Source: Candidatus Kapaibacterium sp.
Lineage (GTDB): Bacteria > Bacteroidota > Ignavibacteria > Palsa-1295
Length of the DNA stretch: 35,210 nucleotides
Reading direction: 5' to 3'
Assembly: GCA_025450975.1 (NCBI GenBank)
Contig: JANWLI010000055.1
Span: 1 to 35,210, forward strand
This document shows positions 474 through 35,210 of the stretch, piece after piece. The notes beneath the pieces were generated by a model. The model was not told the DNA's origin and did no database searches. It saw nothing but the letters and a program-made list of their open reading frames with translations. The number at the start of each line of letters is the position of its first letter. Position 1 is the stretch's first letter. A program made the translations under genes and the position numbers.

Positions 474-1151
474 ATGAAGCACTTATCTATCGCTCGCATT
501 CGCTGGGCAACGCTGCTTGTCCTGGCATTCTCGTTCGTGACCTTCGACTCGTATGCTGCGCTTAACATGTATCTGAAGCTCAAAAGCCTTTCCGGCGGCA
601 AGACCTATACCTGCCAGTTGGATAATAATGGCAAGTTCTCATTTGAGAACGTCGAGCCCGGCACGTACGATCTCGTCTTTGTTCTCGATGGGAGCAGAAG
701 CCAGGATGACGGCACCATTCAATCGATCGAGATCAGCAGCTTTTCCTGGGGCGCTTCCAATACTGCAGGAAAGCAGGGAAAGTCGACACCGGTAACGCGA
801 TCGAATATTTCGAATAACCGGACGGGCTCCAACGATGGCGGTGATCCCAGCCCATCAGGAAAGCAAGGAAAGTCAACACCGGTAACACGCTCGAATATTT
901 CGAATAACCGATCGGCGACTGTCGACGCGCAGGGGCCATCCGTTACCTGCAACGGCAAAACTGTCGCCACGGGAGATCTCGATGGCGATGGAATAGCCGA
1001 CGAACTCTCTTCATCGGTGATCTGGTCGCCGAAGAGCAACATTCGTTCAACGTCTCCGGATGTCATTCTTCACGAGATCGTGGTGACGAGTGCCACCACA
1101 GCCGAAGGCAAACTCAAGGCGAGCTGGAATCTCAAAGAGAACGTTAAGTAA
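474..1151 (+). CDS. Exported Hcp-like (T6SS tube fold) hypothetical protein with an internal tandem duplication
   Basis: 225-aa ATG ORF. Residues 1-29 (MKHLSIARIRWATLLVLAFSFVTFDSYA) look like a Sec signal peptide. The mature part starts NMYLKLKSLSGGK, contains IEISSFSWGASN and DVILHEIVVTSATT, and ends KASWNLKENVK. These blocks follow the order of Hcp-family hallmarks. It also has a DNNGKFSFENVEPGTYDLVF hairpin-like insertion and a duplicated GKQGKSTPVTRSNISNNR segment. A strong terminator follows. Confidence 0.6.
   Translation: MKHLSIARIRWATLLVLAFSFVTFDSYAALNMYLKLKSLSGGKTYTCQLDNNGKFSFENVEPGTYDLVFVLDGSRSQDDGTIQSIEISSFSWGASNTAGKQGKSTPVTRSNISNNRTGSNDGGDPSPSGKQGKSTPVTRSNISNNRSATVDAQGPSVTCNGKTVATGDLDGDGIADELSSSVIWSPKSNIRSTSPDVILHEIVVTSATTAEGKLKASWNLKENVK
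766..910 (+). repeat. Two copies of a 55-nt coding repeat with a 90-nt period
   Basis: 766-820 (caggaaagcagggaaagtcgacaccggtaacgcgatcgaatatttcgaataaccg) and 856-910 differ at 4 positions. They encode the duplicated GKQGKSTPVTRSNISNNR peptide. Confidence 0.85.
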
Positions 1152-1178
1152 GAGTTACGCGGTATTTAGGTAACAGAG

Positions 1179-1208
1179 AGCAGCCTGAACAATCAGGCTG
1201 CTTTTTTA
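1179..1208 (+). terminator. Rho-independent terminator
   Basis: 10-bp stem agcagcctga / tcaggctgct with loop acaa, followed by a ttttttatt run, 28 nt after the stop at 1151. Confidence 0.8.
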
Positions 1209-1272
1209 TTGATCAAGTGAGAATCTTTCATCCGGTCAGTGACATGTACTGTTAAAAGTAGCTGTTAATTCG

Positions 1273-1794
1273 ATGCTTATTCATAGACTAGCCTGTTTCT
1301 TGCTTCTTGCGTTCTCTCCTAGTCTCCTATTTGGTCAGACTGTAGATAGCCAAATTGTATCACAGATAAAAGATACTACTCCTGATATTGTTTTGCAAGT
1401 TCTGGGTGGAGCTGCCACCATGACCGGCTGTTATTATGCATTGAATGGGAAATCAGACTTTAGTCTCTTCCCGCTTATAATGCCTGTTTTTACTGGAGCC
1501 GCTGTCGGTGCAATTGCAGAATTGACTACAGATCGACGGTCGGGTTCGTATTGGGCGAGCATAGGAGGAGCATTTGTGGGCACGGCAATTGGCGGGTTTA
1601 TCTATGGTCACTTGAAGAAGTCGGGTGTCGTTGACCTTATTAAAATTCCTTTGTTTGCTGCGCCGGTACTTACGTTGTCCTGTTTATTTTTCAATTCCAC
1701 GCTTGAGCCTTATTCTTTGCAGCAATATGGCCTTAGCATAATTCCATGGACAGATGCAACATCCAGTGGCATTTTTTTTCAACTGACTTATTAA
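1273..1794 (+). CDS. Hypothetical membrane protein (signal peptide plus Gly-rich transmembrane segments)
   Basis: 173-aa ORF. N-terminal MLIHRLACFLLLAFSPSLLFGQ leader and glycine-zipper-like hydrophobic stretches (GGAFVGTAIGGFIYG). Visibly more AT-rich than the neighbouring genes. No family recognised. Confidence 0.5.
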   Translation: MLIHRLACFLLLAFSPSLLFGQTVDSQIVSQIKDTTPDIVLQVLGGAATMTGCYYALNGKSDFSLFPLIMPVFTGAAVGAIAELTTDRRSGSYWASIGGAFVGTAIGGFIYGHLKKSGVVDLIKIPLFAAPVLTLSCLFFNSTLEPYSLQQYGLSIIPWTDATSSGIFFQLTY

Positions 1795-2393: not shown

Positions 2394-4109
2394 TCAGCCA
2401 TGATGTTCCTTGTGCTCTTCCAACTCGTGCATTAACTCAATGAACTCCGGCATCTCACGGATCGGATCAAGATCAGGATCGACCTTGAAAATTTCGATGT
2501 GGCGGAAGCCGCTTCGGACGCAACGCACGAGCGTCGCCATCCCGCGCTGAGGCTGGTGAGAGAGCAAGTAGGTACATGCAAGGTTGTAGAGCGACGCAGC
2601 GTCGAGCGATTCGATCGCCGAAAGTTTATCAGCCTCGGCAATCGCTTCCGCTTCACGACCTGCCATGGAGTAGATATTTGCCAGGTTTACCATTTCATGG
2701 TAGTGATCGGGATTGAAACGGAGATGGCGTTGAAAGACGGGTATGGCTTTGTCGGCAGCAATTCGTAGTCTTTCGATGATCTCTGGCGAGGTGCCGAGTT
2801 CTTTAATATAGGTAAGATAGTTGAAATGACCTTGTGTGTCATTCTCCCGAAGTCGCACATACTCTTCGCGCGCGTTTACTGCATCCTCGGGTCGTTGGAG
2901 TGCTTGTAAGGCAAAGGCAAGTACGTCATAGCCAACACTGAACGTCGGATCGGTCGCGATCGAACGCTCGGCAAATCGTAGCGCACCTTCATAATCGTCC
3001 CGGGATAGATAGATTCTGCTCATTGCACAAAGATATTGTGGGGTCGGTCCCTCAAGCTCATGTACTTTTTCAGCGGCAGTTTCCGCACGATCGAGCAACG
3101 AAGTACTCTCCCTGTAATAACGATAGAGCACACGATAGGTGAGGGATAAGTCGGCATAAGCATTTGCAAACGTTGGATCGAGTCGCACCGCCTCCTCATA
3201 GAGACTAACCGCGCGTTCATAATCAGGTTTCGTATGCCGACTGTAGTATGCGTCGGCTTTCATCCAAAGCTCATATGCTTCGGCATTTTCTGTGCCACGC
3301 TCGCGGACCTTTTTCTTTTCCGTCGCACTAAGATGCACTTTCAACCCATCGACGATCTTCTGTGTTACTGTTTCCTGCAGATCGAAAATATCGTCCATGA
3401 CACCTTTGTACGAATCCTGCCAGAGATGTTCGTACGTCTCGATATCGATAAGTGAAGCAGCGATTTTTATTCGCTCGCCAAATTTTGTCACCGTTCCCTC
3501 GACAACGTACCGGGTATCATACGTCTGGGCGATTTCGCGGGTACTTTGTTTCACACCTCGTAACTCCATTGAACTCTTGTGATCGAGCACACGGAGCGAT
3601 TTCAGCGTACTAAGCGCGCCGATCAGCTCACCGGTAAGCCCATCGGCAAACCATTCGTTATCTTTTTGCGGAGAAAGGTCGCCGAACGGCAGGATGATGA
3701 GAGACTTACGAAGGTCGACTGACGACTTGCGGGCTACACCGCGCTGATGTGAGCGGATGATGGCATCATAGTCGGTGATCGCCACGTGCTGTATCCCGGC
3801 GATCTGATATTCAAATGAAGAGGGAAGAACGACTGGGGCAATCCGCACCGGCAGAATACGCTTCCCGCGTTCCGAAGCAAGGGAAAGTTCTTTCAACACA
3901 TTTGCGGACTCCACCGACGATGGAGATAAGAGTAAGAGAAACGTCGAGCATCCTCTGATCCCCTCAACGATCTCCGTCGCCCATTGCTCGGCGCCATCGA
4001 TGCCATGGCGATCGAGCCAAACGTTGAAATCATCGGCCTCGAGACGCTCGGCAAGCGCAAGGGCCTGTTCGGAATCCCGGCGCGAGTAGGAGATGAAGAT
4101 ATCAGCCAT
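2394..4109 (-). CDS. TIR domain protein with a central alpha/beta module and a C-terminal TPR-like array
   Basis: 571 aa. The N-terminus MADIFISYSRRD...NVWLD...FLLLLSPSSVESANVLKELSLA is a canonical bacterial TIR signature, including the conserved Glu (E74). The middle part (LIILPFGDLSPQKDNEWFADGLTGELIGALS...RYVVEGTV...IKIAASLID) is the module that usually precedes TPRs in cyclase/BTAD/CadC-type proteins. The last ~300 aa are TPR-like helical repeats. No transmembrane segment seen. Confidence 0.8.
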   Translation of the reverse strand: MADIFISYSRRDSEQALALAERLEADDFNVWLDRHGIDGAEQWATEIVEGIRGCSTFLLLLSPSSVESANVLKELSLASERGKRILPVRIAPVVLPSSFEYQIAGIQHVAITDYDAIIRSHQRGVARKSSVDLRKSLIILPFGDLSPQKDNEWFADGLTGELIGALSTLKSLRVLDHKSSMELRGVKQSTREIAQTYDTRYVVEGTVTKFGERIKIAASLIDIETYEHLWQDSYKGVMDDIFDLQETVTQKIVDGLKVHLSATEKKKVRERGTENAEAYELWMKADAYYSRHTKPDYERAVSLYEEAVRLDPTFANAYADLSLTYRVLYRYYRESTSLLDRAETAAEKVHELEGPTPQYLCAMSRIYLSRDDYEGALRFAERSIATDPTFSVGYDVLAFALQALQRPEDAVNAREEYVRLRENDTQGHFNYLTYIKELGTSPEIIERLRIAADKAIPVFQRHLRFNPDHYHEMVNLANIYSMAGREAEAIAEADKLSAIESLDAASLYNLACTYLLSHQPQRGMATLVRCVRSGFRHIEIFKVDPDLDPIREMPEFIELMHELEEHKEHHG

Positions 4110-8787: not shown

Positions 8788-10947
8788 TTAGCGGCCGACC
8801 GAGGGAGAGTAACTAAACCTGATATCCTCGCAATACATTTCAATCTTGATGCGGCGCTGCCCATCTGCGCCTGCGGGAAGCTGCGTGAGCTTACGAGGAC
8901 AGATCTTTGAAAGATCAAGCCTAAAGAGCTCTGCCGTGCCATCGTTAGCGAGGTAGATGAGCGATCCGGACTTTTCGAGCTGCGGCGTACAGCCTCCTGC
9001 GAGCCTGAAACTTTCAAAGTAATCGAGCCAGGGCTGCGCATCGGTTTGGGATAAAGTGAACGTCAGATTCGGATGATCGATCTTGCCGGGTTCCTTGAAA
9101 TAGTCCCTGCTATTATCGGCTGTTTGCTGTGTCGTCTTCTGCTTGAAGACGATCGACTCGACTTTGCTGACTTTCGCAGTGGGCAGACCGGCGATCTCGA
9201 GCTTGAAGTTCGCAGGCGACCATGTCTTCTGTGCAGTTGCCGGCGGTTCGATCTTTTTATTTGGCTCCGGCCTGACTTCGTGCATCGCTGCCGGCTGAAC
9301 CTTGATCGTCATGTATGCCGGATCCTTCGAGGCAGCATCGAGTGCGGGCATTTGGATCTCGGAAATGAGTGCAGCCTGGAATTCGCGGCGTGCACGCTCG
9401 TGAAAATTGAAGTCTTCCATGATGATCGCGCCACTCTTGCGCAAGTACTCTTTATTCCACGAGCTCTCGATCCAGTCATAGATCGCCGGCGTCATGCTCA
9501 GGCCCAATTGCATGGCGAAATCGCCTGCAACGCTTGGCGCTGTAGCCGCGCCTTGAAAACTCTGTAGATATCCTGCAGTTTTTCCGTCGATCTCTATGAG
9601 AAATTTGCCGGATACATAGCCGCGCCGGTTCGCATCGGAACTCCAGGTCGTTTCGGATTGCGACGCGCCTTCATCCCATTGGCGGCCGCCAATCCCACTT
9701 CCAGCGCTATCTTCGGATGACGGGCCCATAGCGATCGTGATCTCGTGATGGCCGAACTGTCCGTTCTTTTCGGCAACAAGTTTCAGAAAGTATGATTTAT
9801 TCGGTTTAGCTGTCCCCGGCGAAAGCCAGAGATTCGACGGGATCGGCTCTTTCTTGAGCGAGATGTAGCGTGGTGTGCCGACTTCGCGCAGATACCAATT
9901 GTAGTTGAACGGGCCACCGGTTGCCGAGCGTGCGCGGCCGGTGAATTCGTGCGGGGCGTCCGGATCGAGTGGCATCGTCTGCGGCGCAGTGATACGGACT
10001 TCGATCGGTGTCTTGACGACGATCGGTTCGCCGAGGCGATTGATATCGGGAATACCGTCGCCATCGATGTCGATATTGCCTTCGCCACAATCATCGGAAA
10101 CCGTAAACGAGAACGGTGTTGCCCAGCCATCCTGATAGCTTACCAACGGCCGTCCTTGAAAATCAAGTGCGCGGACGCTCCAGGCATAGCGCTTCCCTAC
10201 TTCGGGATAAAAATATTCGACGGGCCAGATCAGCTCCGTGAGTCCCATCAGTTCGCGCTCAAATACCGGGCGTGCACTGCGAAGCGCCGTCGATGGATTC
10301 TGTCCGGCGAGAACTTCGAAGACTGAGAGTCGGTAACGAACGGGCTCCATCGGAGCCGGAACCACGGGAGTCCAGCGGAACATCGGGCGCGGATTGCCGG
10401 AGTTCATCTCGATGACATTGTTCTGCCCAAGTTTGCACAGGACTGCCTGATCGGCAGGCAGGATCAGATATGGAGTCGTATAGGAAACGATCGTAACGCA
10501 CACCGGTGGCAAGAGTGCCAGTTGCTCGAGTGTCGTAGCATCAATGATCTTTATCGTGATGCAGATCGTGCCGTCGGGAATGCGCCCCGATCGCTTCGTG
10601 CTTTCGTCGAGGTTATCTTCGAAGTGCATGGCAGACATCGGTACGATATTCTCACCGTAGAAGGTGCGTATGCCAGGGTTAATCGTTTGCGGCTGCAACT
10701 TGTCGGCATTCGTGTAAGCGACAAGTTTGTTGTTATGCGAGATCTCGGCTAATATCTTCACATCGGTCGGAACCGATGGTGCATTCGTGACGATCAGCGT
10801 TACCGTATTAACACGCGATGACCAGTCCGAGAGATACGGCGACGGGTTCGGCGAAAAGATCAGCTGAGCAGACCATTGCGAGTAAGCAAACTGCGCTGCA
10901 AACGTGCAGACAAGGAAAATAGACTGTAGAAGGCGCTTTACGATCAT
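8788..10947 (-). CDS. Secreted 719-aa protein with two C-terminal tandem contractile-tail tube (Pvc1/Afp1/T4 gp19-like) domains
   Basis: Signal peptide MIVKRLLQSIFLVCTFAAQFAYSQ. The N-terminal ~440 aa are unassigned and contain an IDIDGDGIPD calcium-site-like motif. Residues ~443-556 read KFLIEIDGKTAGYLQSFQG...IYDWIESS...RKSGAIIMEDFNFHERARREFQAALISEIQMPALDAASKDPAYMTIKVQ. Residues ~578-715 read NFKLEIAGLPTAKVSKVESIVFKQK...EPGKIDHPNLTFTLSQTDAQPWLDYFESF...EKSGSLIYLANDGTAELFRLDLSKICPRKLT...IKIEMYCEDIRFSY. Both follow the tail-tube pattern block by block. Confidence 0.7.
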   Translation of the reverse strand: MIVKRLLQSIFLVCTFAAQFAYSQWSAQLIFSPNPSPYLSDWSSRVNTVTLIVTNAPSVPTDVKILAEISHNNKLVAYTNADKLQPQTINPGIRTFYGENIVPMSAMHFEDNLDESTKRSGRIPDGTICITIKIIDATTLEQLALLPPVCVTIVSYTTPYLILPADQAVLCKLGQNNVIEMNSGNPRPMFRWTPVVPAPMEPVRYRLSVFEVLAGQNPSTALRSARPVFERELMGLTELIWPVEYFYPEVGKRYAWSVRALDFQGRPLVSYQDGWATPFSFTVSDDCGEGNIDIDGDGIPDINRLGEPIVVKTPIEVRITAPQTMPLDPDAPHEFTGRARSATGGPFNYNWYLREVGTPRYISLKKEPIPSNLWLSPGTAKPNKSYFLKLVAEKNGQFGHHEITIAMGPSSEDSAGSGIGGRQWDEGASQSETTWSSDANRRGYVSGKFLIEIDGKTAGYLQSFQGAATAPSVAGDFAMQLGLSMTPAIYDWIESSWNKEYLRKSGAIIMEDFNFHERARREFQAALISEIQMPALDAASKDPAYMTIKVQPAAMHEVRPEPNKKIEPPATAQKTWSPANFKLEIAGLPTAKVSKVESIVFKQKTTQQTADNSRDYFKEPGKIDHPNLTFTLSQTDAQPWLDYFESFRLAGGCTPQLEKSGSLIYLANDGTAELFRLDLSKICPRKLTQLPAGADGQRRIKIEMYCEDIRFSYSPSVGR

Positions 10948-11110: not shown

Positions 11111-12505
11111 ATGTATTTACGGTTCGTCGGATTCATCTTACTCTTCATTTCTGCTATTCCTCTCTTTGCTCAGGAGGATAGCCTGACTGTCATTGGCACG
11201 AAGGACGTTATTACCGGCCTCGATACTCCCTGGGAGATCCTTTGGGGACCGGATAATCATATATGGATGACAGAGCGCTATGGGCGTATCAGCCGTGTCA
11301 ACCCGGAAACAGGAGAACTTACGCCGCTCATCACCATGCCGGAAGTCTATGAGACGGCCGAGGCCGGACTTATGGGAATGACACTGCATCCGCATTTTCC
11401 CGATCCGCCTTATCTCTACACTGCCTATACCGGCAAGGTTGACGATTCAACTTACGGTGTTTACATTGTTCGCTTCACTTATGCGCGGGATACGCTGGTC
11501 GACAAGCAGATCCTGATCGATCCACGACGAATTATCGGTGGCACGATTCATGACGGCTGCCGCCTTCTGATCGATAGCAACGACATGACGATGTACGTCA
11601 CGACCGGCGATGGCGAGGATTATTGGTATCCGCAGACCGATTCCATTTATAATGGCAAGGTGCTCCGCATGAACCTCGATGGCTCGGTGCCGGACGACAA
11701 TCCCATTCCCGGCAGTCATGTATGGTCTAAAGGCCATCGGAATGCGCAAGGTCTTGCCTACGGACCGCATCACTTGATGTATACTACGATGCACGGCACC
11801 TTTGAGGAAGATGAGATCAACATCATTGTCAAAGACGGAAATTACGGTTGGCCGAATATCAACGGTAAAGCTGATTTTGGTGATGAAGTTGCGTTCGCTA
11901 GTGACTCATCGGCCATTGACCCGATCTATACCTGGACTCCGACGATCGCACCGGGCGGATGTCTGTACTACGACCACGAGGAATTCCCTCAACTCCGCAA
12001 TTCCCTGCTGATCGCCATCCTCAAAGGCGATGGCGACGGTAACAGCTATATGATAGCTGCGCATCTCGACAGTGCGGGGACTGCCGTGACCGATACCGTG
12101 CGCTACTTCTACGGAGAATACGGCAGGTTTCGGGATGTCGCTATCGCTCCCGATGGAAGAGTCTTCATCTCGACAAGCAATAGAGATTCAAAGGGATTTC
12201 CAAGACAGGACGACGATCGTATTCTCATGCTCTACGCTGCGCCCCAGGTATCGGTCGCAGTTGATGAGCAGTCCACGGTTTCGATCTCACCAAATCCAAT
12301 GACTGGTGCTGCTTCGTTCGTGACGCTGCCGCACGAATTTGTCGGCGCTTCGTATGATATCGTCGATGCCTTGGGGCGTATCGTTCGGACCGGGACCCTG
12401 GAGTTCACCCAATCGCGTATCGAGCGTGGCACGCTTGCCGAAGGCGTTTATATCCTCCGCGTGCAGGGCGATGTTCCCTGCTCTACGCGGTTCGTAGTTA
12501 ACTGA
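11111..12505 (+). CDS. PQQ-dependent sugar (glucose/sorbosone) dehydrogenase family protein with a T9SS C-terminal sorting domain
   Basis: GLDTPWEILWGPDNHIWMTER.GRI..V, GLMGMTLHP.F, SKGHRNAQGLAYGP and EDEINIIVKDGNYGWP are typical of soluble GSDH beta-propellers. The tail ISPNPMTGAASFVTL...GVYILRVQG...RFVVN is T9SS-sorting-domain-like. Track ORF starts at 11006. The ATG at 11111 gives the leader MYLRFVGFILLFISAIPLFAQ. Its stop overlaps the convergent stop of the next gene by 8 nt. Confidence 0.8.
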   Translation: MYLRFVGFILLFISAIPLFAQEDSLTVIGTKDVITGLDTPWEILWGPDNHIWMTERYGRISRVNPETGELTPLITMPEVYETAEAGLMGMTLHPHFPDPPYLYTAYTGKVDDSTYGVYIVRFTYARDTLVDKQILIDPRRIIGGTIHDGCRLLIDSNDMTMYVTTGDGEDYWYPQTDSIYNGKVLRMNLDGSVPDDNPIPGSHVWSKGHRNAQGLAYGPHHLMYTTMHGTFEEDEINIIVKDGNYGWPNINGKADFGDEVAFASDSSAIDPIYTWTPTIAPGGCLYYDHEEFPQLRNSLLIAILKGDGDGNSYMIAAHLDSAGTAVTDTVRYFYGEYGRFRDVAIAPDGRVFISTSNRDSKGFPRQDDDRILMLYAAPQVSVAVDEQSTVSISPNPMTGAASFVTLPHEFVGASYDIVDALGRIVRTGTLEFTQSRIERGTLAEGVYILRVQGDVPCSTRFVVN

Positions 12506-14219
12506 GTTTCTTGAGGATCGCTTCGAACTCCGGGAGGTTGCGCAGTGGATCGAGGTCGGGATCGGTGCGAATCAACTTCAGGTTGCCAAAGCCCTTGTCG
12601 ACAGCAAGAGCGATCGCCTTAATTCCGTCGTCTAGTTTTTTATGCCGAATGAGCATACAGCCGACATTGTAAAGACTAAGTCCATCGCTGTGAGAAGAAG
12701 CTAAGAGTCTGTTGACGATATTCAGAGCTTTTTCTGTTTCGTGAAGGTCGAAGTAAAAGCTCGCAAGCCCTGCCAGGAGGAATTGATCGTCGGGCTGAAG
12801 TTTGCGTCTGTGCTCGAAGAGCGGCAAGGCGCGCTCGGCAACGTACGTTTGTCCTTGTGTGTCGCCGGTTTTCGAATACTGCACATACAGATTCCAGAAA
12901 CCGAAGATATTTTCCGGATTGACTTCCGTGCACTTCTGATACCACTCAATAGCTTGGATCGTCTTTCCTGCCTGGGAGTAAACAAACCCCATGCTCAAGT
13001 AACCCCGGATGATATTGGGTTCGAGCTCGATAATTTTTTGGGAGGCATCGATCGCTGCATCGAAATTGCCGCGGATCGTCTCGAGCGTTGCAAGGGCATG
13101 ATAGGCAACTGTGATCGTATCATTGATCGCAAGCGACCTATCGATCAGTGCTGCGACTTCGTCAAGCCACTCTTTGCGCTGTTCGTAAACACGATAGAGG
13201 ACGAGCAATGCCGACGCCTTGATCGCCATAGCAGCAGCAAAGCCGGGATCAATAGTCAGCGCTTCGTCGAGCAACTCAAGGGCATGCGTAATCGCTTGCT
13301 TTGTGCTCTGTTCGATGAAGCTTCCGGCACGCATATAAAATTCATAGGCTTCGGCGCTTTCGGTCAGACGCGCGGTTAGCTTCTCTTTATCTATCAGCGA
13401 GAGTGTGACTTTCAGCGCATCGATGGTCTTTCGTGCAACGGCTTCCTGGATGTCAAAGATATCATCCATGACGCCGCGATGCGCCTCATTCCAGATATAC
13501 TCGGTCGAGCGCGAGTCGTAGAGAGCGACAGTGATCTTGATCTGCTCGCCGTGCTTGCGAACTGCACCTTCGATGCAGTAGCGGACTTTCAGCGCTTGTG
13601 CAATTGCCTGCAGGCTTCCCTTGTAGCCTTTGTAGCCCATGGCAGTGCGGCGATCGGTGACGCGAAGCGACTGGATGCCGGAGAGTGCGTTGATCAGTTC
13701 GTCGGCAAGGCCGTCGGCGAACCACTCGTTGTCCTTGCCTGCTGAGAGATCTTCGAATGGGAGAACGGACAGCGAGACGCGTTCGTCTTTCGGTGCAGGT
13801 TGCTGAGCGGGTTGTGGCGCAACGGGCGTCGAGCCCGCGACGGCGCCGATTCGATCAAGGCCTCGAAGAATACCGTCGAAGTCGGCGTACTTGACTCGCT
13901 GCAGACCCGCCAGTTGGTAGCGAAGGTCGGCAGTGAGGTCGACGTGTTCGAGGTCGACGGGGATGATGGTCTTGCGCGACTCCGATGCGAGTGAGACTTC
14001 TTTGACAACATTATGCGATGCGACGGAGCTTTCGGAGAGCAGAAGGAGCACTACCTTGCACGTATCGATAGCGGTGACGATCTCGCGGGACCAGCTCGTG
14101 GCCGCTTCGATGCCTTGCGTATCGATCCAGATCGAACATCCGGATGCTCGCAAGCGCTCTGCTAAGGAGAGCGCTTGTTCTTTATCGCGGCGTGAATATG
14201 ATATGAAGACGTCTGACAC
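12498..14219 (-). CDS. TIR domain protein with a central alpha/beta module and a C-terminal TPR-like array (paralog of 2394..4109)
   Basis: 573 aa with a GTG start. (M)SDVFISYSRRDKEQALSLAERL...SIWID...VLLLLSESSVASHNVVKEVSLA is a TIR domain with E74 conserved. LSVLPFEDLSAGKDNEWFADGLADELINALS...RYCIEGAV...IKITVALYD is the central module, followed by TPR-like repeats. By manual count 49 of the first 80 residues are identical to the 2394..4109 protein. Confidence 0.8.
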   Translation of the reverse strand: MSDVFISYSRRDKEQALSLAERLRASGCSIWIDTQGIEAATSWSREIVTAIDTCKVVLLLLSESSVASHNVVKEVSLASESRKTIIPVDLEHVDLTADLRYQLAGLQRVKYADFDGILRGLDRIGAVAGSTPVAPQPAQQPAPKDERVSLSVLPFEDLSAGKDNEWFADGLADELINALSGIQSLRVTDRRTAMGYKGYKGSLQAIAQALKVRYCIEGAVRKHGEQIKITVALYDSRSTEYIWNEAHRGVMDDIFDIQEAVARKTIDALKVTLSLIDKEKLTARLTESAEAYEFYMRAGSFIEQSTKQAITHALELLDEALTIDPGFAAAMAIKASALLVLYRVYEQRKEWLDEVAALIDRSLAINDTITVAYHALATLETIRGNFDAAIDASQKIIELEPNIIRGYLSMGFVYSQAGKTIQAIEWYQKCTEVNPENIFGFWNLYVQYSKTGDTQGQTYVAERALPLFEHRRKLQPDDQFLLAGLASFYFDLHETEKALNIVNRLLASSHSDGLSLYNVGCMLIRHKKLDDGIKAIALAVDKGFGNLKLIRTDPDLDPLRNLPEFEAILKKLS

Positions 14220-34301: not shown

Positions 34302-35210
34302 ATGCAGATCACACTCGGCAAGTTACGACTACGTATAGGAAAAAAATCGCCGCCGCCATCCTCATCAACGGCACGACTGCGCATCGCCTCGGGCAGCGAA
34401 ACGGGGATCGCGCAACTCTTCAACCGCTACGACAATCCGCGGGAAAATCTCACCTACATCCGCGAGACGGTCGCCGCCGCCATGCACGCACGATCGGAAG
34501 CGATCGGCAAAGGCAGATTCCGTATCTATGAAGCAACAGCATCGGCAAACGGCAAGCCGACGCAGCGCGAGCTTGGGCACGATCACGAACTTGCGCGCCT
34601 GCTCGATACGCCGAATCCGCTCATCGATGGCTCGGAGTTACTCGAACTCATCAGCCAGTGGCTCGATGCAACAGGCAACGCACTTCTATTAAAGGTACGC
34701 AACACGCAGGGCAAGGTGATCGAACTCTGGCCGCTGCCGGCGACGAGCTTCTTCATCGAGAAAGCAAGCGACGAACTTCCTGCGCGCTACCGCTTCATGC
34801 CGTCGAACACTGCAGTGCCGGGCGAAGACATCATCCATATTAAGCGGCCCGATATTCGGACGAGTCCGTTCTACGGACATGCGATCCTCAGCGACGTGAT
34901 CGAGACGGCGAAGACCGACGCGGCGCTGCGCCTCTATCAGCAGCGCTTCTTCGATAACGATGCAATGCCGCGTGCAGTCCTGCGTTGGCCGTCGGGGACG
35001 CTGATCACCGAAGAGCAGATGACGGAGATCCGCAACGCCTGGGAAGAGCGCTACCGCGGCGCGGCGAATGCATCGAAGCTCGCCATCCTTCCCGATGGCG
35101 GAGAACTGCAGCCGCTGACTTCGGGCAAGGAGCTGGACTTCTCGAAGTCGCGCCTGATGCTGCGCGATGCGATCCGCGAAGCATTCAGGATTCCGAAGAT
35201 CGTCCTCGGC
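34302..35210 (+). CDS. Phage portal protein, HK97 family (N-terminal 303 codons; runs off the window end)
   Basis: Absent from the ORF track because it is open at the edge. From ATG 34302 the frame reads MQITLGKLRL...YIRETVAAAMHARSEAIGKGRFRIYE...HELARLLDTPNPLIDGSELLELISQWLDATGNALLLKVRN.QGKVIELWPLP...IIHIKRPDIRTSPFYGHAILSDVIETAKTDAALRLYQQRFFDNDAMPRAVLRWP...EEQMTEIRNAWEERYRG..NASKLAILPDGGELQPL. This follows the HK97-type portal pattern (H.L..LL..PN...s..e........l.GNa......, G.S......i......e.y...ff.N.a.P..vl). Confidence 0.8.
   Translation, partial: MQITLGKLRLRIGKKSPPPSSSTARLRIASGSETGIAQLFNRYDNPRENLTYIRETVAAAMHARSEAIGKGRFRIYEATASANGKPTQRELGHDHELARLLDTPNPLIDGSELLELISQWLDATGNALLLKVRNTQGKVIELWPLPATSFFIEKASDELPARYRFMPSNTAVPGEDIIHIKRPDIRTSPFYGHAILSDVIETAKTDAALRLYQQRFFDNDAMPRAVLRWPSGTLITEEQMTEIRNAWEERYRGAANASKLAILPDGGELQPLTSGKELDFSKSRLMLRDAIREAFRIPKIVLG

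What the first reader, a model, noticed from the sequence alone, without database searches (positions are those of the whole stretch)
474..1151. Hcp-like tube-fold protein that carries a Sec signal peptide
Seen directly: after a textbook leader (MKHLSIARIRWATLLVLAFSFVTFDSYA) the mature sequence begins NMYLKLKSLSGGK. It then has IQSIEISSFSWGASN and DVILHEIVVTSATT, and it terminates KLKASWNLKENVK. As I recall Hcp1 of P. aeruginosa, its blocks are MAVDMFIKIGDVKGES, IDVLAWSWGMSQ, YLIITLKEVLVSSVST and C-terminal VKYGWNIRQNVQA. The same four blocks occur here in the same order, so I infer a T6SS-tube (Hcp) fold. Hcp proteins are normally leaderless cytoplasmic proteins exported through the T6SS. Here there is a Sec leader, a 37-aa inserted hairpin (DNNGKFSFENVEPGTYDLVF) and a recently duplicated loop (55-nt repeat, 4 mismatches). 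No T6SS gene lies within 35 kb. A second exported tube-fold protein lies at 8788-10947.
Basis: partly seen in the sequence, partly recalled or inferred. Interest (0 to 1): 0.6.

Follow-up and report, generated by a model that had tools for sequence, protein, structure and literature searches.

The report
Sec-exported, remodelled Hcp relative without T6SS
This gene encodes a much-altered relative of Hcp, the tube protein of the bacterial type VI secretion "nano-syringe"; it carries an ordinary export signal and belongs to a family of at least 13 copies in a bacterium whose relatives have no such syringe, so the protein has apparently been put to another, still unknown, use outside the cytoplasm.

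Summary
ORF 474-1151 (225 aa) is a real gene under purifying selection (dN/dS 0.14). It has a conserved signal-peptide-like leader, the quoted Hcp-like blocks, a 55-nt repeat with 4 mismatches, its own terminator, and no T6SS gene in the 35-kb window.

Homology to Hcp is firm but only visible with profiles. The query's own subtype against canonical leaderless Hcps gives hhalign 98.5 %, E 2.3e-15. The query alone misses PF05638 (E 0.29). Two AlphaFold models with a confident core (pLDDT above 90) find no Hcp match by Foldseek. So this is a remodelled Hcp derivative, not a demonstrated tube fold.

Compared with canonical Hcp it has:
- a prealbumin-like hairpin inserted after strand 1;
- a duplicated, strongly conserved polar loop motif (TRSNISNN);
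- a DxDGDGxxD calcium-loop-like module;
- one core strand missing.

The family is a lineage-specific expansion (Kapaibacterium-type, by homologue labels). The MAG holds at least 13 leader-bearing paralogues. The family occurs in 17 of 23 genomes of the taxonomic family, while TssC occurs in 0 of 23 (TssF in 0 of 19 sampled). Met32 is unique to this gene, so the leader is made.

Best reading: a Sec-exported, T6SS-independent Hcp descendant. Function and ring formation remain unknown.

The parts
474..1151 (+). Complete ORF, 225 aa plus stop: a leader-bearing, remodelled Hcp-family protein.
   Evidence: ORF list. dN/dS is 0.14 against L015. 30 homologues were found.
474..557 (+). Signal-peptide-like leader, residues 1-28 (MKHLSIARIRWATLLVLAFSFVTFDSYA). 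The predicted SPase I site lies between A28 and A29.
   Evidence: Present in every family member. Position -3 is S or T in 29 of 31, -1 is A in 27 of 31, +1 is an invariant Ala. KD10 is 2.57 against below 1.0 in canonical Hcps. The start ATG and first 9 codons are conserved in L015. SignalP was not available.
561..587 (+). Equivalent of Hcp strand 1 (LNMYLKLKS), starting 2 residues after the predicted cleavage site.
   Evidence: Aligns with 'IYMKIEGVDGE' and 'DYLLEIDGIKGE' of complete and canonical members. Strand 31-38 has pLDDT about 92.
594..716 (+). Inserted prealbumin/CarboxypepD_reg-like beta module (residues 41-81, three strands).
   Evidence: PF13620 E 1.9e-5, profile positions 21-64 of 82, below the cut-off. 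Matches repeats of NOMO2 and SdrD and thousands of giant repeat proteins. Absent from canonical Hcps.
717..761 (+). Hcp signature strand IQSIEISSFSWGASN (residues 82-96), the most conserved block of the family.
   Evidence: I85, I87, S89, F90, S91, W92 and G93 are at least 90 % conserved across 59 sequences including canonical Hcps. This is the only part the PF05638 model touches (696-785, E 0.29).
762..929 (+). Extended loop (residues 97-152) carrying two copies of GKQGKSTPVTRSNISNNR. The DNA direct repeat is 766-825 / 856-915.
   Evidence: Repeat. pLDDT is below 50, yet dN/dS is 0.09. The motif is in 33 of 59 aligned sequences, and in the genome it occurs only in paralogues of this family.
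972..1001 (+). GDLDGDGIAD: a DxDGDGxxD calcium-binding-loop-like motif, inside a structured module (about residues 153-190) that replaces the Hcp strand-3/helix region.
   Evidence: D168, G171, D172, G173 and D176 are invariant in the 22-sequence subtype alignment. FG-GAP PF01839 E 0.0028, below the cut-off. pLDDT is 80-90. Calcium binding is inferred, not tested.
1059..1148 (+). C-terminal Hcp strands DVILHEIVVTSATT ... KLKASWNLKENVK.
   Evidence: The canonical Hcp P0043 ends '...AIKASWNLKENVK'. hhalign aligns this stretch with the canonical C-terminus. Strands 196-204 and 208-218 fall in blocks of pLDDT 80-94.
1175..1212 (+). Intrinsic terminator: a hairpin followed by a U-run, 24 nt after the stop codon.
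   Evidence: dG -21.6 kcal/mol, z -6.1, and 0 of 200 shuffles fold as well. The pattern scanner missed it.
8788..10947 (-). The second exported tube-domain protein named in the finding: 719 aa, leader-like N-terminus, C-terminal gp19-type tail-tube domain(s). It is a separate gene, not shown to act together with the ORF.
   Evidence: PF06841 E 3.8e-12, two stretches. Similar large gp19-bearing proteins occur in G018, G016, G006, G002 and G001.

Best explanation
ORF 474-1151 encodes a Sec-exported, T6SS-independent and strongly remodelled descendant of the Hcp tube protein. It is one member of a lineage-specific paralogue family; homologues come from MAGs labelled Kapaibacterium, Kapabacteria, Ignavibacteriota or Bacteroidota.

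Shown:
- It is homologous to Hcp.
- The N-terminal leader is conserved, and the mature end starts right at Hcp strand 1.
- A prealbumin-like beta module is inserted in the strand 1-2 loop.
- An enlarged loop carries a conserved, here duplicated, polar motif.
- A DxDGDGxxD module sits where Hcp has strand 3 and its helix.
- One core strand is lost.
- The gene is a single unit with its own terminator.
- TssC was absent from all 23 sampled genomes of the taxonomic family and TssF from all 19 tested.

Inferred mechanism:
- The pre-protein is exported by Sec and cut by signal peptidase I between A28 and A29.
- The mature protein of about 197 aa folds in the periplasm or beyond into a compact beta-sandwich, probably stabilised by calcium.
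- It presents the flexible, selectively constrained Asn/Ser/Arg-rich loop as its working (ligand-contacting) surface.
- It therefore acts as an extracytoplasmic binding or structural protein, not as the inner tube of a contractile machine.
- I consider ring or tube assembly unlikely for this subtype (about 0.2), though possible for the 'complete' paralogues on contig C179.
For: Homology to Hcp:
- hhalign of the query subtype (A3, no member that hits PF05638 on its own at E <= 0.01) against canonical leaderless Hcps (A4): 98.5 %, E 2.3e-15, template columns 3-160.
- Family profile against 1y12: E 1.2e-6.
- 9 of 31 members hit PF05638, best E 3.6e-31.
- The profile search reaches 160-aa Hcps.
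- The same-genome paralogue C179:3249-3866 hits 1y12 at E 5e-20 and has the same leader and insert.

Leader is real and is made:
- Conserved in all members, with an AXA-like site.
- Hydrophobicity is bimodal against canonical Hcps.
- ATG 474 and the first codons are conserved in L015.
- Met32 occurs in 1 of 31 members.
- Leader dN/dS is 0.50 with the frame intact, against 0.09 for the mature part.

No T6SS:
- The window has none.
- TssC is in 0 of 19 and TssF in 0 of 19 family genomes.
- At class level TssC is in 0 of 23 against the Hcp-like family in 17 of 23.
- In the six T6SS-bearing genomes of the class, the Hcp matches found (five of the six) cover only the Hcp core (no leader or insert) and lie beside TssC. 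G028's TssD is 155 aa and leaderless.

Not tied to the eCIS: a sheath and gp19 tubes are in 4 of 19 family genomes and bring their own tubes.

Remodelling:
- Alignment.
- Confident AF2 core without any Hcp match.

Extracytoplasmic flavour (suggestive only): DxDGDGxxD is invariant in the subtype, and the insert is of a type common in giant surface repeat proteins.

Standalone transcription unit: terminator.
Against: - Export and cleavage are therefore inferred.
- The MAG is only 67.5 % complete, so absence of T6SS in this genome rests mainly on its relatives.
- Only TssC and TssF were searched as T6SS markers.
- The AF2 models are monomer models built from shallow alignments (31 and 59 sequences). 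Foldseek may miss a fold interrupted by two large insertions, so loss of the Hcp barrel is not proven.
- The function (binding or structural) has no direct evidence.
- The two cysteines (C47, C159) are not conserved across the family, so they give no support for a disulfide.
- The protein has no T9SS C-terminal sorting domain, although neighbouring exported proteins do. Its final location (periplasm, surface or medium) is open.
Confidence: 0.8

Rival explanations
1. It still builds Hcp-like hexameric rings or tubes, but outside the cytoplasm. This would be an exported ring scaffold or conduit assembled in the periplasm or on the surface, and is the first reader's implied reading.
For: - Hcp homology spans the whole domain.
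- 'Complete' leader-bearing paralogues with all Hcp strands exist in the same genome and in tandem arrays.
- Single-chain proteins with six tandem Hcp domains behind an export-like N-terminus exist elsewhere, which suggests exported rings are viable.
Against: - This subtype lacks the 'PMESLSLNFTKI' strand and the helix region.
- Two confident-core models show no Hcp similarity.
- The enlarged loops sit where ring contacts are made in Hcp1; this rests on my knowledge of 1y12 and was not tested.
- No multimer prediction was possible.
Confidence: 0.15
2. It is an ordinary T6SS tube protein (TssD). Translation starts at Met32, and the T6SS locus lies in the unassembled third of the MAG.
For: - The MAG is 67.5 % complete.
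- An in-frame ATG exists at 567.
- Databases label some relatives 'type VI secretion system tube protein Hcp'.
Against: - Met32 is unique to this gene: Ala in 22 of 31, Met in 1 of 31.
- The leader is conserved in all homologues and paralogues.
- TssC is absent from 23 of 23 and TssF from 19 of 19 genomes of the family, most of them at least 95 % complete, while the Hcp-like family is in 17 of 23.
- The real T6SS Hcps found in the class lie next to TssC, and their matches cover only the Hcp core; G028's is leaderless.
Confidence: 0.02
3. It is not Hcp-related. It would be an ordinary secreted prealbumin-like plus FG-GAP-like beta protein whose Hcp-like blocks are chance resemblance.
For: - On its own the protein hits only CarboxypepD_reg, SdrD_B and FG-GAP profiles, all below threshold.
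- It has no PDB sequence hit.
- Foldseek finds no Hcp.
- One relative is named 'FG-GAP repeat protein'.
Against: - hhalign 98.5 %, E 2.3e-15, using a profile without any member that hits PF05638 by itself.
- There is a continuous series of intermediates to bona fide Hcps with the same leader and insert.
- The C-terminal motif KASWNLKENVK is identical to that of canonical Hcp P0043.
Confidence: 0.03
4. It is a tube or adaptor component of the eCIS-like contractile system encoded on contig C106 of the same genome.
For: The genome has a PF04984 sheath followed by two gp19 tube genes at C106:7469-9055.
Against: - That locus has its own two tube genes.
- A sheath is present in only 4 of 19 family genomes, and genomes rich in Hcp-like genes (G005, G015, G002, G003) lack it.
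- A Sec leader does not fit cytoplasmic assembly of a contractile particle.
- None of the paralogues lies near C106.
Confidence: 0.02

Closest known systems
Hcp / TssD, the T6SS inner-tube protein (Pfam PF05638; for example P. aeruginosa Hcp1 PA0085, PDB 1y12)
   Same: - Homologous over the whole Hcp domain at profile level.
- Shares strand 1 at the mature N-terminus, the IEISSFSWG signature, the V-L-x-D/E-I-x-V-S/T-S strand and the C-terminal SWNLKENVK strand.
- Its closest canonical relatives are the 'DYLLEIDGIKGES' type of about 160 aa.
   Different: - Carries a Sec-type leader.
- About 32 extra residues form a prealbumin-like module in the strand 1-2 loop.
- The loop after the signature strand is enlarged and repetitive.
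- The helix region is replaced by a DxDGDGxxD module, and one core strand is lost.
- No T6SS is found in the lineage.
- Below the PF05638 threshold on its own, and the predicted fold is not recognised as Hcp.
T6SS-iii TssD of Bacteroidota (represented here by the G028 protein next to TssC and TssF)
   Same: Same bacterial class and same superfamily.
   Different: - The G028 TssD is 155 aa, leaderless and sits inside a T6SS locus.
- The window's family is closer in sequence to the proteobacterial-type Hcps than to this protein. In the tree G028_TssD sits on a very long branch (2.5).
Leader-bearing Hcps without T6SS seen elsewhere: P0047, P0054, P0056 and P0057 here, plus earlier unchecked notes of this scan in Acidobacteriota, Chloroflexota, Actinomycetota, CPR and archaea
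   Same: An Hcp homologue behind an export signal, with no T6SS context. I found no description in the searched literature.
   Different: - Those are otherwise canonical Hcp domains, and they nest inside the canonical clade.
- The window's family additionally has the insert, the loop motif, a remodelled core and a large paralogue expansion.
CarboxypepD_reg / prealbumin-like beta-sandwich repeats (PF13620, SdrD_B PF17210)
   Same: Residues 36-79 match the central strands (D..G.F.F..V.PG.Y.L).
   Different: Only about half a domain (profile positions 21-64 of 82), below the cut-off, and embedded in an Hcp loop rather than standing as a separate domain.
Exported gp19-type tail-tube domain proteins (window 8788-10947; PF06841)
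   Same: Another contractile-tail tube family placed behind a leader in the same window and lineage.
   Different: A different tube family, in a large multidomain protein. No evidence of a functional link with the ORF.

Membership tests
Hcp/TssD (PF05638, T6SS inner tube) | The protein itself scores above the curated PF05638 threshold. | tested here: not met
   12.2 bits, E 0.29, against a cut-off of 23.5, covering only 696-785. Not listed at E <= 1 in hmmscan.
Hcp/TssD (PF05638, T6SS inner tube) | Common ancestry with Hcp, shown by profile-profile or transitive homology. | tested here: met
   hhalign 98.5 %, E 2.3e-15. Profile against 1y12 E 1.2e-6. 9 of 31 family members are above E 0.01 for PF05638.
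Hcp/TssD (PF05638, T6SS inner tube) | Leaderless cytoplasmic protein of about 160 aa. | tested here: not met
   28-residue conserved leader and a mature length of about 197 aa.
Hcp/TssD (PF05638, T6SS inner tube) | The genome encodes the T6SS sheath and baseplate (TssC, TssF), usually near hcp. | tested here: not met
   None in the window. TssC 0 of 23 and TssF 0 of 19 in the taxonomic family. The window's own MAG is 67.5 % complete.
Hcp/TssD (PF05638, T6SS inner tube) | Hcp beta-barrel fold. | tested here: not met
   Two AF2 models (pLDDT 66 and 71, core above 90). Foldseek against PDB and BFVD has best E 0.35-0.54 and no Hcp in the top 50 rows printed for each of the three searches. Caveat: these are predicted monomers, and the fold is interrupted by insertions.
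Hcp/TssD (PF05638, T6SS inner tube) | Hexameric ring that stacks into a tube. | not testable with these tools
   No multimer prediction or experiment was available.
Sec (SPase I) secretory pre-proteins | A basic n-region, a hydrophobic h-region, small residues at -3 and -1, and no lipobox cysteine. | tested here: met
   K2, R8, R10. KD10 2.57. S26 and A28, with family-wide S/T in 29 of 31 and A in 27 of 31. No Cys at +1. This is a rule-based check only; SignalP was not run.
CarboxypepD_reg / prealbumin-like domain (PF13620) | A full domain above the curated threshold. | tested here: not met
   25.4 bits against 32.3, profile positions 21-64 of 82 only.
FG-GAP repeat (PF01839) | A repeat above threshold, normally several copies forming a propeller. 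| tested here: not met
   17.9 bits against 22.1, a single 16-residue stretch. Only the DxDGDG loop is shared.
T9SS cargo (Por_Secre_tail, PF18962) | A C-terminal sorting domain. | tested here: not met
   No hit for the ORF, while five other proteins of the window have it.

The most novel reading that the evidence does not exclude
Contractile-tail tube folds have been recruited in this lineage into a Sec-dependent extracytoplasmic repertoire. Both the Hcp type (at least 13 copies) and the gp19 type (8788-10947) are present in this one genome. The Hcp-derived paralogues would act as periplasmic or surface traps or scaffolds. One possibility is decoys that capture effectors delivered by competitors' T6SS, using the ancestral cargo-binding surface of Hcp. 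Their expansion, tandem arrays and fast-changing loops would then reflect an arms race. Nothing here tests this. It is merely not excluded.
Probability: 0.1. Interest if true: 0.85.

Novelty: new variant of a known kind. Interest (0 to 1): 0.55.

Why it matters
Hcp is treated as the hallmark of T6SS: a leaderless protein whose presence in supernatants is the standard assay for a working system. Annotation pipelines name any PF05638 hit a 'T6SS tube protein'. A conserved family of Hcp descendants with a Sec leader, in genomes without sheath or baseplate genes, has three consequences:

- Such annotations can be wrong, so genome surveys that count hcp may over-call T6SS.
- The tail-tube fold can be reused outside the cytoplasm.
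- The fold can be heavily rebuilt (insert, lost strand, new calcium-loop-like module) while keeping its signature strands.

The family gives a tractable set of small proteins, both 'complete' and remodelled paralogues from one genome. They can be used to ask what an exported Hcp does and whether it still forms rings.

Tried and rejected
- Structure route: two AlphaFold2 runs (alignments of 31 and 59 sequences) and three Foldseek searches (PDB twice, BFVD once) gave no significant neighbour. Model coordinates are not exposed, so I could not cut out the loops or superpose on 1y12.
- Single-sequence searches of the query against Pfam, NCBIfam and PDB sequences give no Hcp hit.
- Conserved-neighbourhood idea: GyrI-like and TIR-TPR genes lie beside the Hcp-like gene in the window and in two other contigs. 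I do not rely on it. Other paralogues have unrelated neighbours. L015 has different downstream genes.
- PADLOC: no known defence system includes the ORF.
- Disulfide as evidence of export: cysteine counts are not consistently even across the family, so I dropped it.
- N-glycosylation sequon reading of SNISNNRT: the Ser is Gln in several members (SRSNIQNN), so I dropped it.
- hhalign paired the last insert strand (YDLVFVLDG) with Hcp strand 1. I rejected that register because complete members and type-D paralogues have an unmistakable 'DYLLEIEGIKGE' or 'IYMKIEGVDGE' before the insert.
- The genome-contig scan returned only one locus because its patterns were saturated by canonical Hcps.
- The terminator scanner missed the hairpin; direct folding found it.
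- Literature: five searches found no description of Sec-leader Hcps. The library lacks most subscription-journal papers.
Full report
**Observation**

The ORF at 474-1151 (+) is present as described, 225 aa with every quoted block. The DNA repeat is real. The tool's extended version is 60 nt at 90 %. It duplicates the peptide GKQGKSTPVTRSNISNNR. A hairpin of -21.6 kcal/mol (z = -6.1) followed by a U-run lies 24 nt after the stop, so the gene ends its own transcript. Upstream lies a divergent gcvT. The same arrangement is seen in the closest homologue's contig, L015.

**Is it a real gene, and where does it start?**

Against L015, which encodes a 225-aa protein about 90 % identical, there are no indels. 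dS is 0.50 and dN/dS is 0.14. By region, dN/dS is 0.09 for the mature part, 0.09 for the "disordered" repeat loop and 0.50 for the leader.

The L015 frame opens with the same MKHLSIARI from an ATG preceded by a conserved upstream sequence; the gene caller had chosen an internal Met there. In the 31-sequence alignment, Met32 is unique to the window's gene (Ala in 22 of 31). By contrast, -3 is S or T in 29, -1 is A in 27, and +1 is an invariant Ala.

A crude hydropathy scan separates the proteins cleanly. Canonical Hcps have a maximal 10-residue KD score below 1.0 in the first 60 residues. All leader-bearing proteins score 2.1-3.5, with basic residues before the hydrophobic stretch. I conclude that the leader is translated and looks like a Sec/SPase I signal peptide.

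**Is it Hcp?**

On its own the protein does not reach PF05638: E 0.29 and 12.2 bits against a cut-off of 23.5, touching only the IEISSFSWG block. It also has no PDB sequence hit. At family level the link is firm:

- The database holds 30 homologues of 190-225 aa. All have leaders, and 9 of the 31 aligned sequences hit PF05638 individually (best E 3.6e-31).
- The family profile matches P. aeruginosa Hcp1 (1y12) over residues 16-162 at E 1.2e-6.
- It recovers canonical 160-aa Hcps at E 1e-10 to 1e-4 in 5.8 billion sequences.
- The stricter test used a profile of only the query's subtype, 22 sequences, none hitting PF05638 at E <= 0.01. Against a profile of 12 canonical leaderless Hcps, hhalign gives 98.5 % and E 2.3e-15 across template columns 3-160.
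- The canonical Hcp P0043 ends "...KASWNLKENVK", as the query does.

**Is it still an Hcp fold?**

This could not be confirmed. The first AlphaFold2 model had pLDDT 66. The second, from a deeper alignment, had pLDDT 71, all five runs at 67-71, and 76 residues at pLDDT 90 or higher. Both show a beta core made of residues 31-72, 82-91 and 155-218, with a disordered loop at 96-152. Foldseek found nothing significant in PDB (best E 0.54 and 0.50) or in BFVD (0.35), and no Hcp or tail-tube chain in the top 50 rows printed for each of the three searches.

Alignment with "complete" family members (P0030, P0041, C179:3249-3866) explains why:

- The query keeps strand 1, the signature strand, the VILHEIVVTS strand and the C-terminal strand.
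- It lacks the PMESLSLNFTKI strand.
- Hcp's strand 3 and helix are replaced by a module containing GDLDGDGIAD.
- It carries a prealbumin-like module of about 32 residues after strand 1.

The insert's sequence type is the one repeated tens of times in giant surface proteins. That is why the representative search returned 5,338 hits, dominated by such proteins. The "tube fold" is therefore ancestry, not a demonstrated property.

**The family**

The MAG is 2.33 Mb in 194 contigs and 67.5 % complete. It holds at least 13 paralogues: C55, C163, three on C114, four in tandem on C179, two on C187, C191 and C189, plus a fragment on C33. All paralogues whose N-terminus is on the contig have a leader and the insert. 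One of them, C179:3249-3866, is a bona fide Hcp by Pfam (108 bits) and by phmmer against 1y12 (E 5e-20). G005 has a similar four-gene tandem array.

A quick maximum-likelihood tree places all leader-plus-insert proteins outside a clade of canonical Hcps supported at 95 % SH-aLRT. Five leader-only Hcps from elsewhere (P0047, P0051, P0054, P0056, P0057) nest inside the canonical clade, so they gained leaders independently. My regex labels there mis-assigned five insert-bearing rows, which I corrected by eye.

The loop motif (S/T)(R/K)SN(I/V)xNN is present in 33 of 59 aligned sequences. In the window's genome it occurs only in these paralogues. It has been duplicated in at least two separate clades, and it is as constrained as the core. 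Its role is unexplained.

**T6SS or other machines**

Pfam scans of 24 ORFs in the window show no T6SS gene. They show T9SS-sorted enzymes, two TIR-TPR proteins, an ECF sigma/anti-sigma pair, housekeeping genes and a phage portal at the 3' edge.

Across 31 relatives, TssC and TssF occur only in G028, which belongs to another family. There they flank a 155-aa leaderless TssD. In a 201-genome class sample, the Hcp-like family is in 17 of 23 genomes of the window's taxonomic family and TssC is in 0 of 23. TssC is in six genomes of other families. In four of these (G070, G167, G183, G190) the profile hit covers only the Hcp core and lies beside TssC.

An eCIS-like locus, with a sheath and two gp19 tubes, exists on C106. 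Such loci occur in only 4 of 19 family genomes, and their presence does not track that of the Hcp-like genes.

**Interpretation**

The best-supported reading is a Sec-exported, T6SS-independent and remodelled Hcp descendant that works in the periplasm or beyond. The invariant DxDGDGxxD loop and the adhesin-type insert fit an extracytoplasmic, possibly calcium-stabilised, binding or structural protein. The constrained flexible loop is the likeliest contact surface. These functional steps are inference. Ring formation is possible for the complete paralogues but doubtful for this subtype.

**Comparison with what is known**

I found no description of leader-bearing Hcps in five full-text searches. 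The library omits most subscription journals. Earlier notes of this scan (AI leads, unchecked) report exported Hcps without T6SS in about 30 other genomes from many phyla. My own data independently show leader-only Hcps and single-chain six-domain Hcp proteins.

What is particular here is the combination of leader, insert, remodelled core, conserved loop motif and a large paralogue expansion. In addition, an exported gp19-type tube protein lies in the same window. I rate it a new variant of a known kind and moderately interesting.

Noticed in passing
window 8788-10947 (-): A 719-aa protein with a leader-like N-terminus, an IDIDGDGIPD motif and C-terminal gp19-type tail-tube domain(s) (PF06841 E 3.8e-12, two stretches). 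Similar large gp19-bearing ORFs occur in G018 (696 aa), G016 (1971 aa, three domains), G006 (1385 aa), G002 and G001.
   Followed up: partly
P0100, P0111, P0112 (also P0103, P0118, P0128, P0176): Proteins of about 1,050-1,150 aa with six tandem Hcp domains in one chain, possibly a covalent pseudo-hexamer. They sit behind an N-terminal 'RRRLxxExLExRxLLA' motif, which I recall from Planctomycetes exported proteins. No context or taxonomy was checked.
   Followed up: partly
window 2394-4109 (-) and 12498-14219 (-); L010; P0005 contig: TIR_2 + TPR proteins of about 575 aa. They occur in tandem arrays of 3-5 next to Hcp-like genes in two other contigs, and a GyrI-like gene is also a neighbour twice. 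The linkage may simply reflect the high copy number of the TIR family. PADLOC gives only generic TIR-domain matches.
   Followed up: partly
G000 contig C106:7469-9055 (locus L013): An eCIS- or phage-tail-like locus in the same genome: a PF04984 sheath (533-aa frame) followed by two gp19 tube genes (E 1e-37 to 1e-40). Equivalent loci are in G001, G012, G014 and G023.
   Followed up: no
window 34302-35210 (+), runs off the end: Phage portal protein (PF04860, E 2.3e-40) at the 3' edge of the window. A prophage or tail-like element may begin here.
   Followed up: no
G000 contigs C179:2511-5372, C114:939-2800, C187:9998-11474: Tandem arrays of 4, 3 and 2 leader-bearing Hcp-like paralogues of different subtypes. 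Some carry a repeated 'GAGKVS.QDFHF' strand or 'APRDVATGQSSGKR' repeats. None has T6SS neighbours.
   Followed up: partly
L015:2508-3209: The gene caller started P0001 at an internal Met (215 aa). The frame actually opens with the same MKHLSIARI as the window's gene. Database entries of this family may be N-terminally truncated, which hides the leader.
   Followed up: yes
window 1175-1212: scan_promoters_terminators reported no terminator in 300-1300, although a 14-bp hairpin plus U-run is present (dG -21.6 kcal/mol, z -6.1).
   Followed up: yes
P0047, P0051, P0054, P0056, P0057: Otherwise canonical Hcp domains with N-terminal leaders or anchors and no insert. They nest inside the canonical Hcp clade, so leaders were gained independently several times.
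   Followed up: partly
window 1273-1794 (+): A 173-aa protein immediately downstream with a leader-like N-terminus and weak glycine-zipper hits (E 0.004-0.04). It is not conserved next to homologues in L015 or L010.
   Followed up: no
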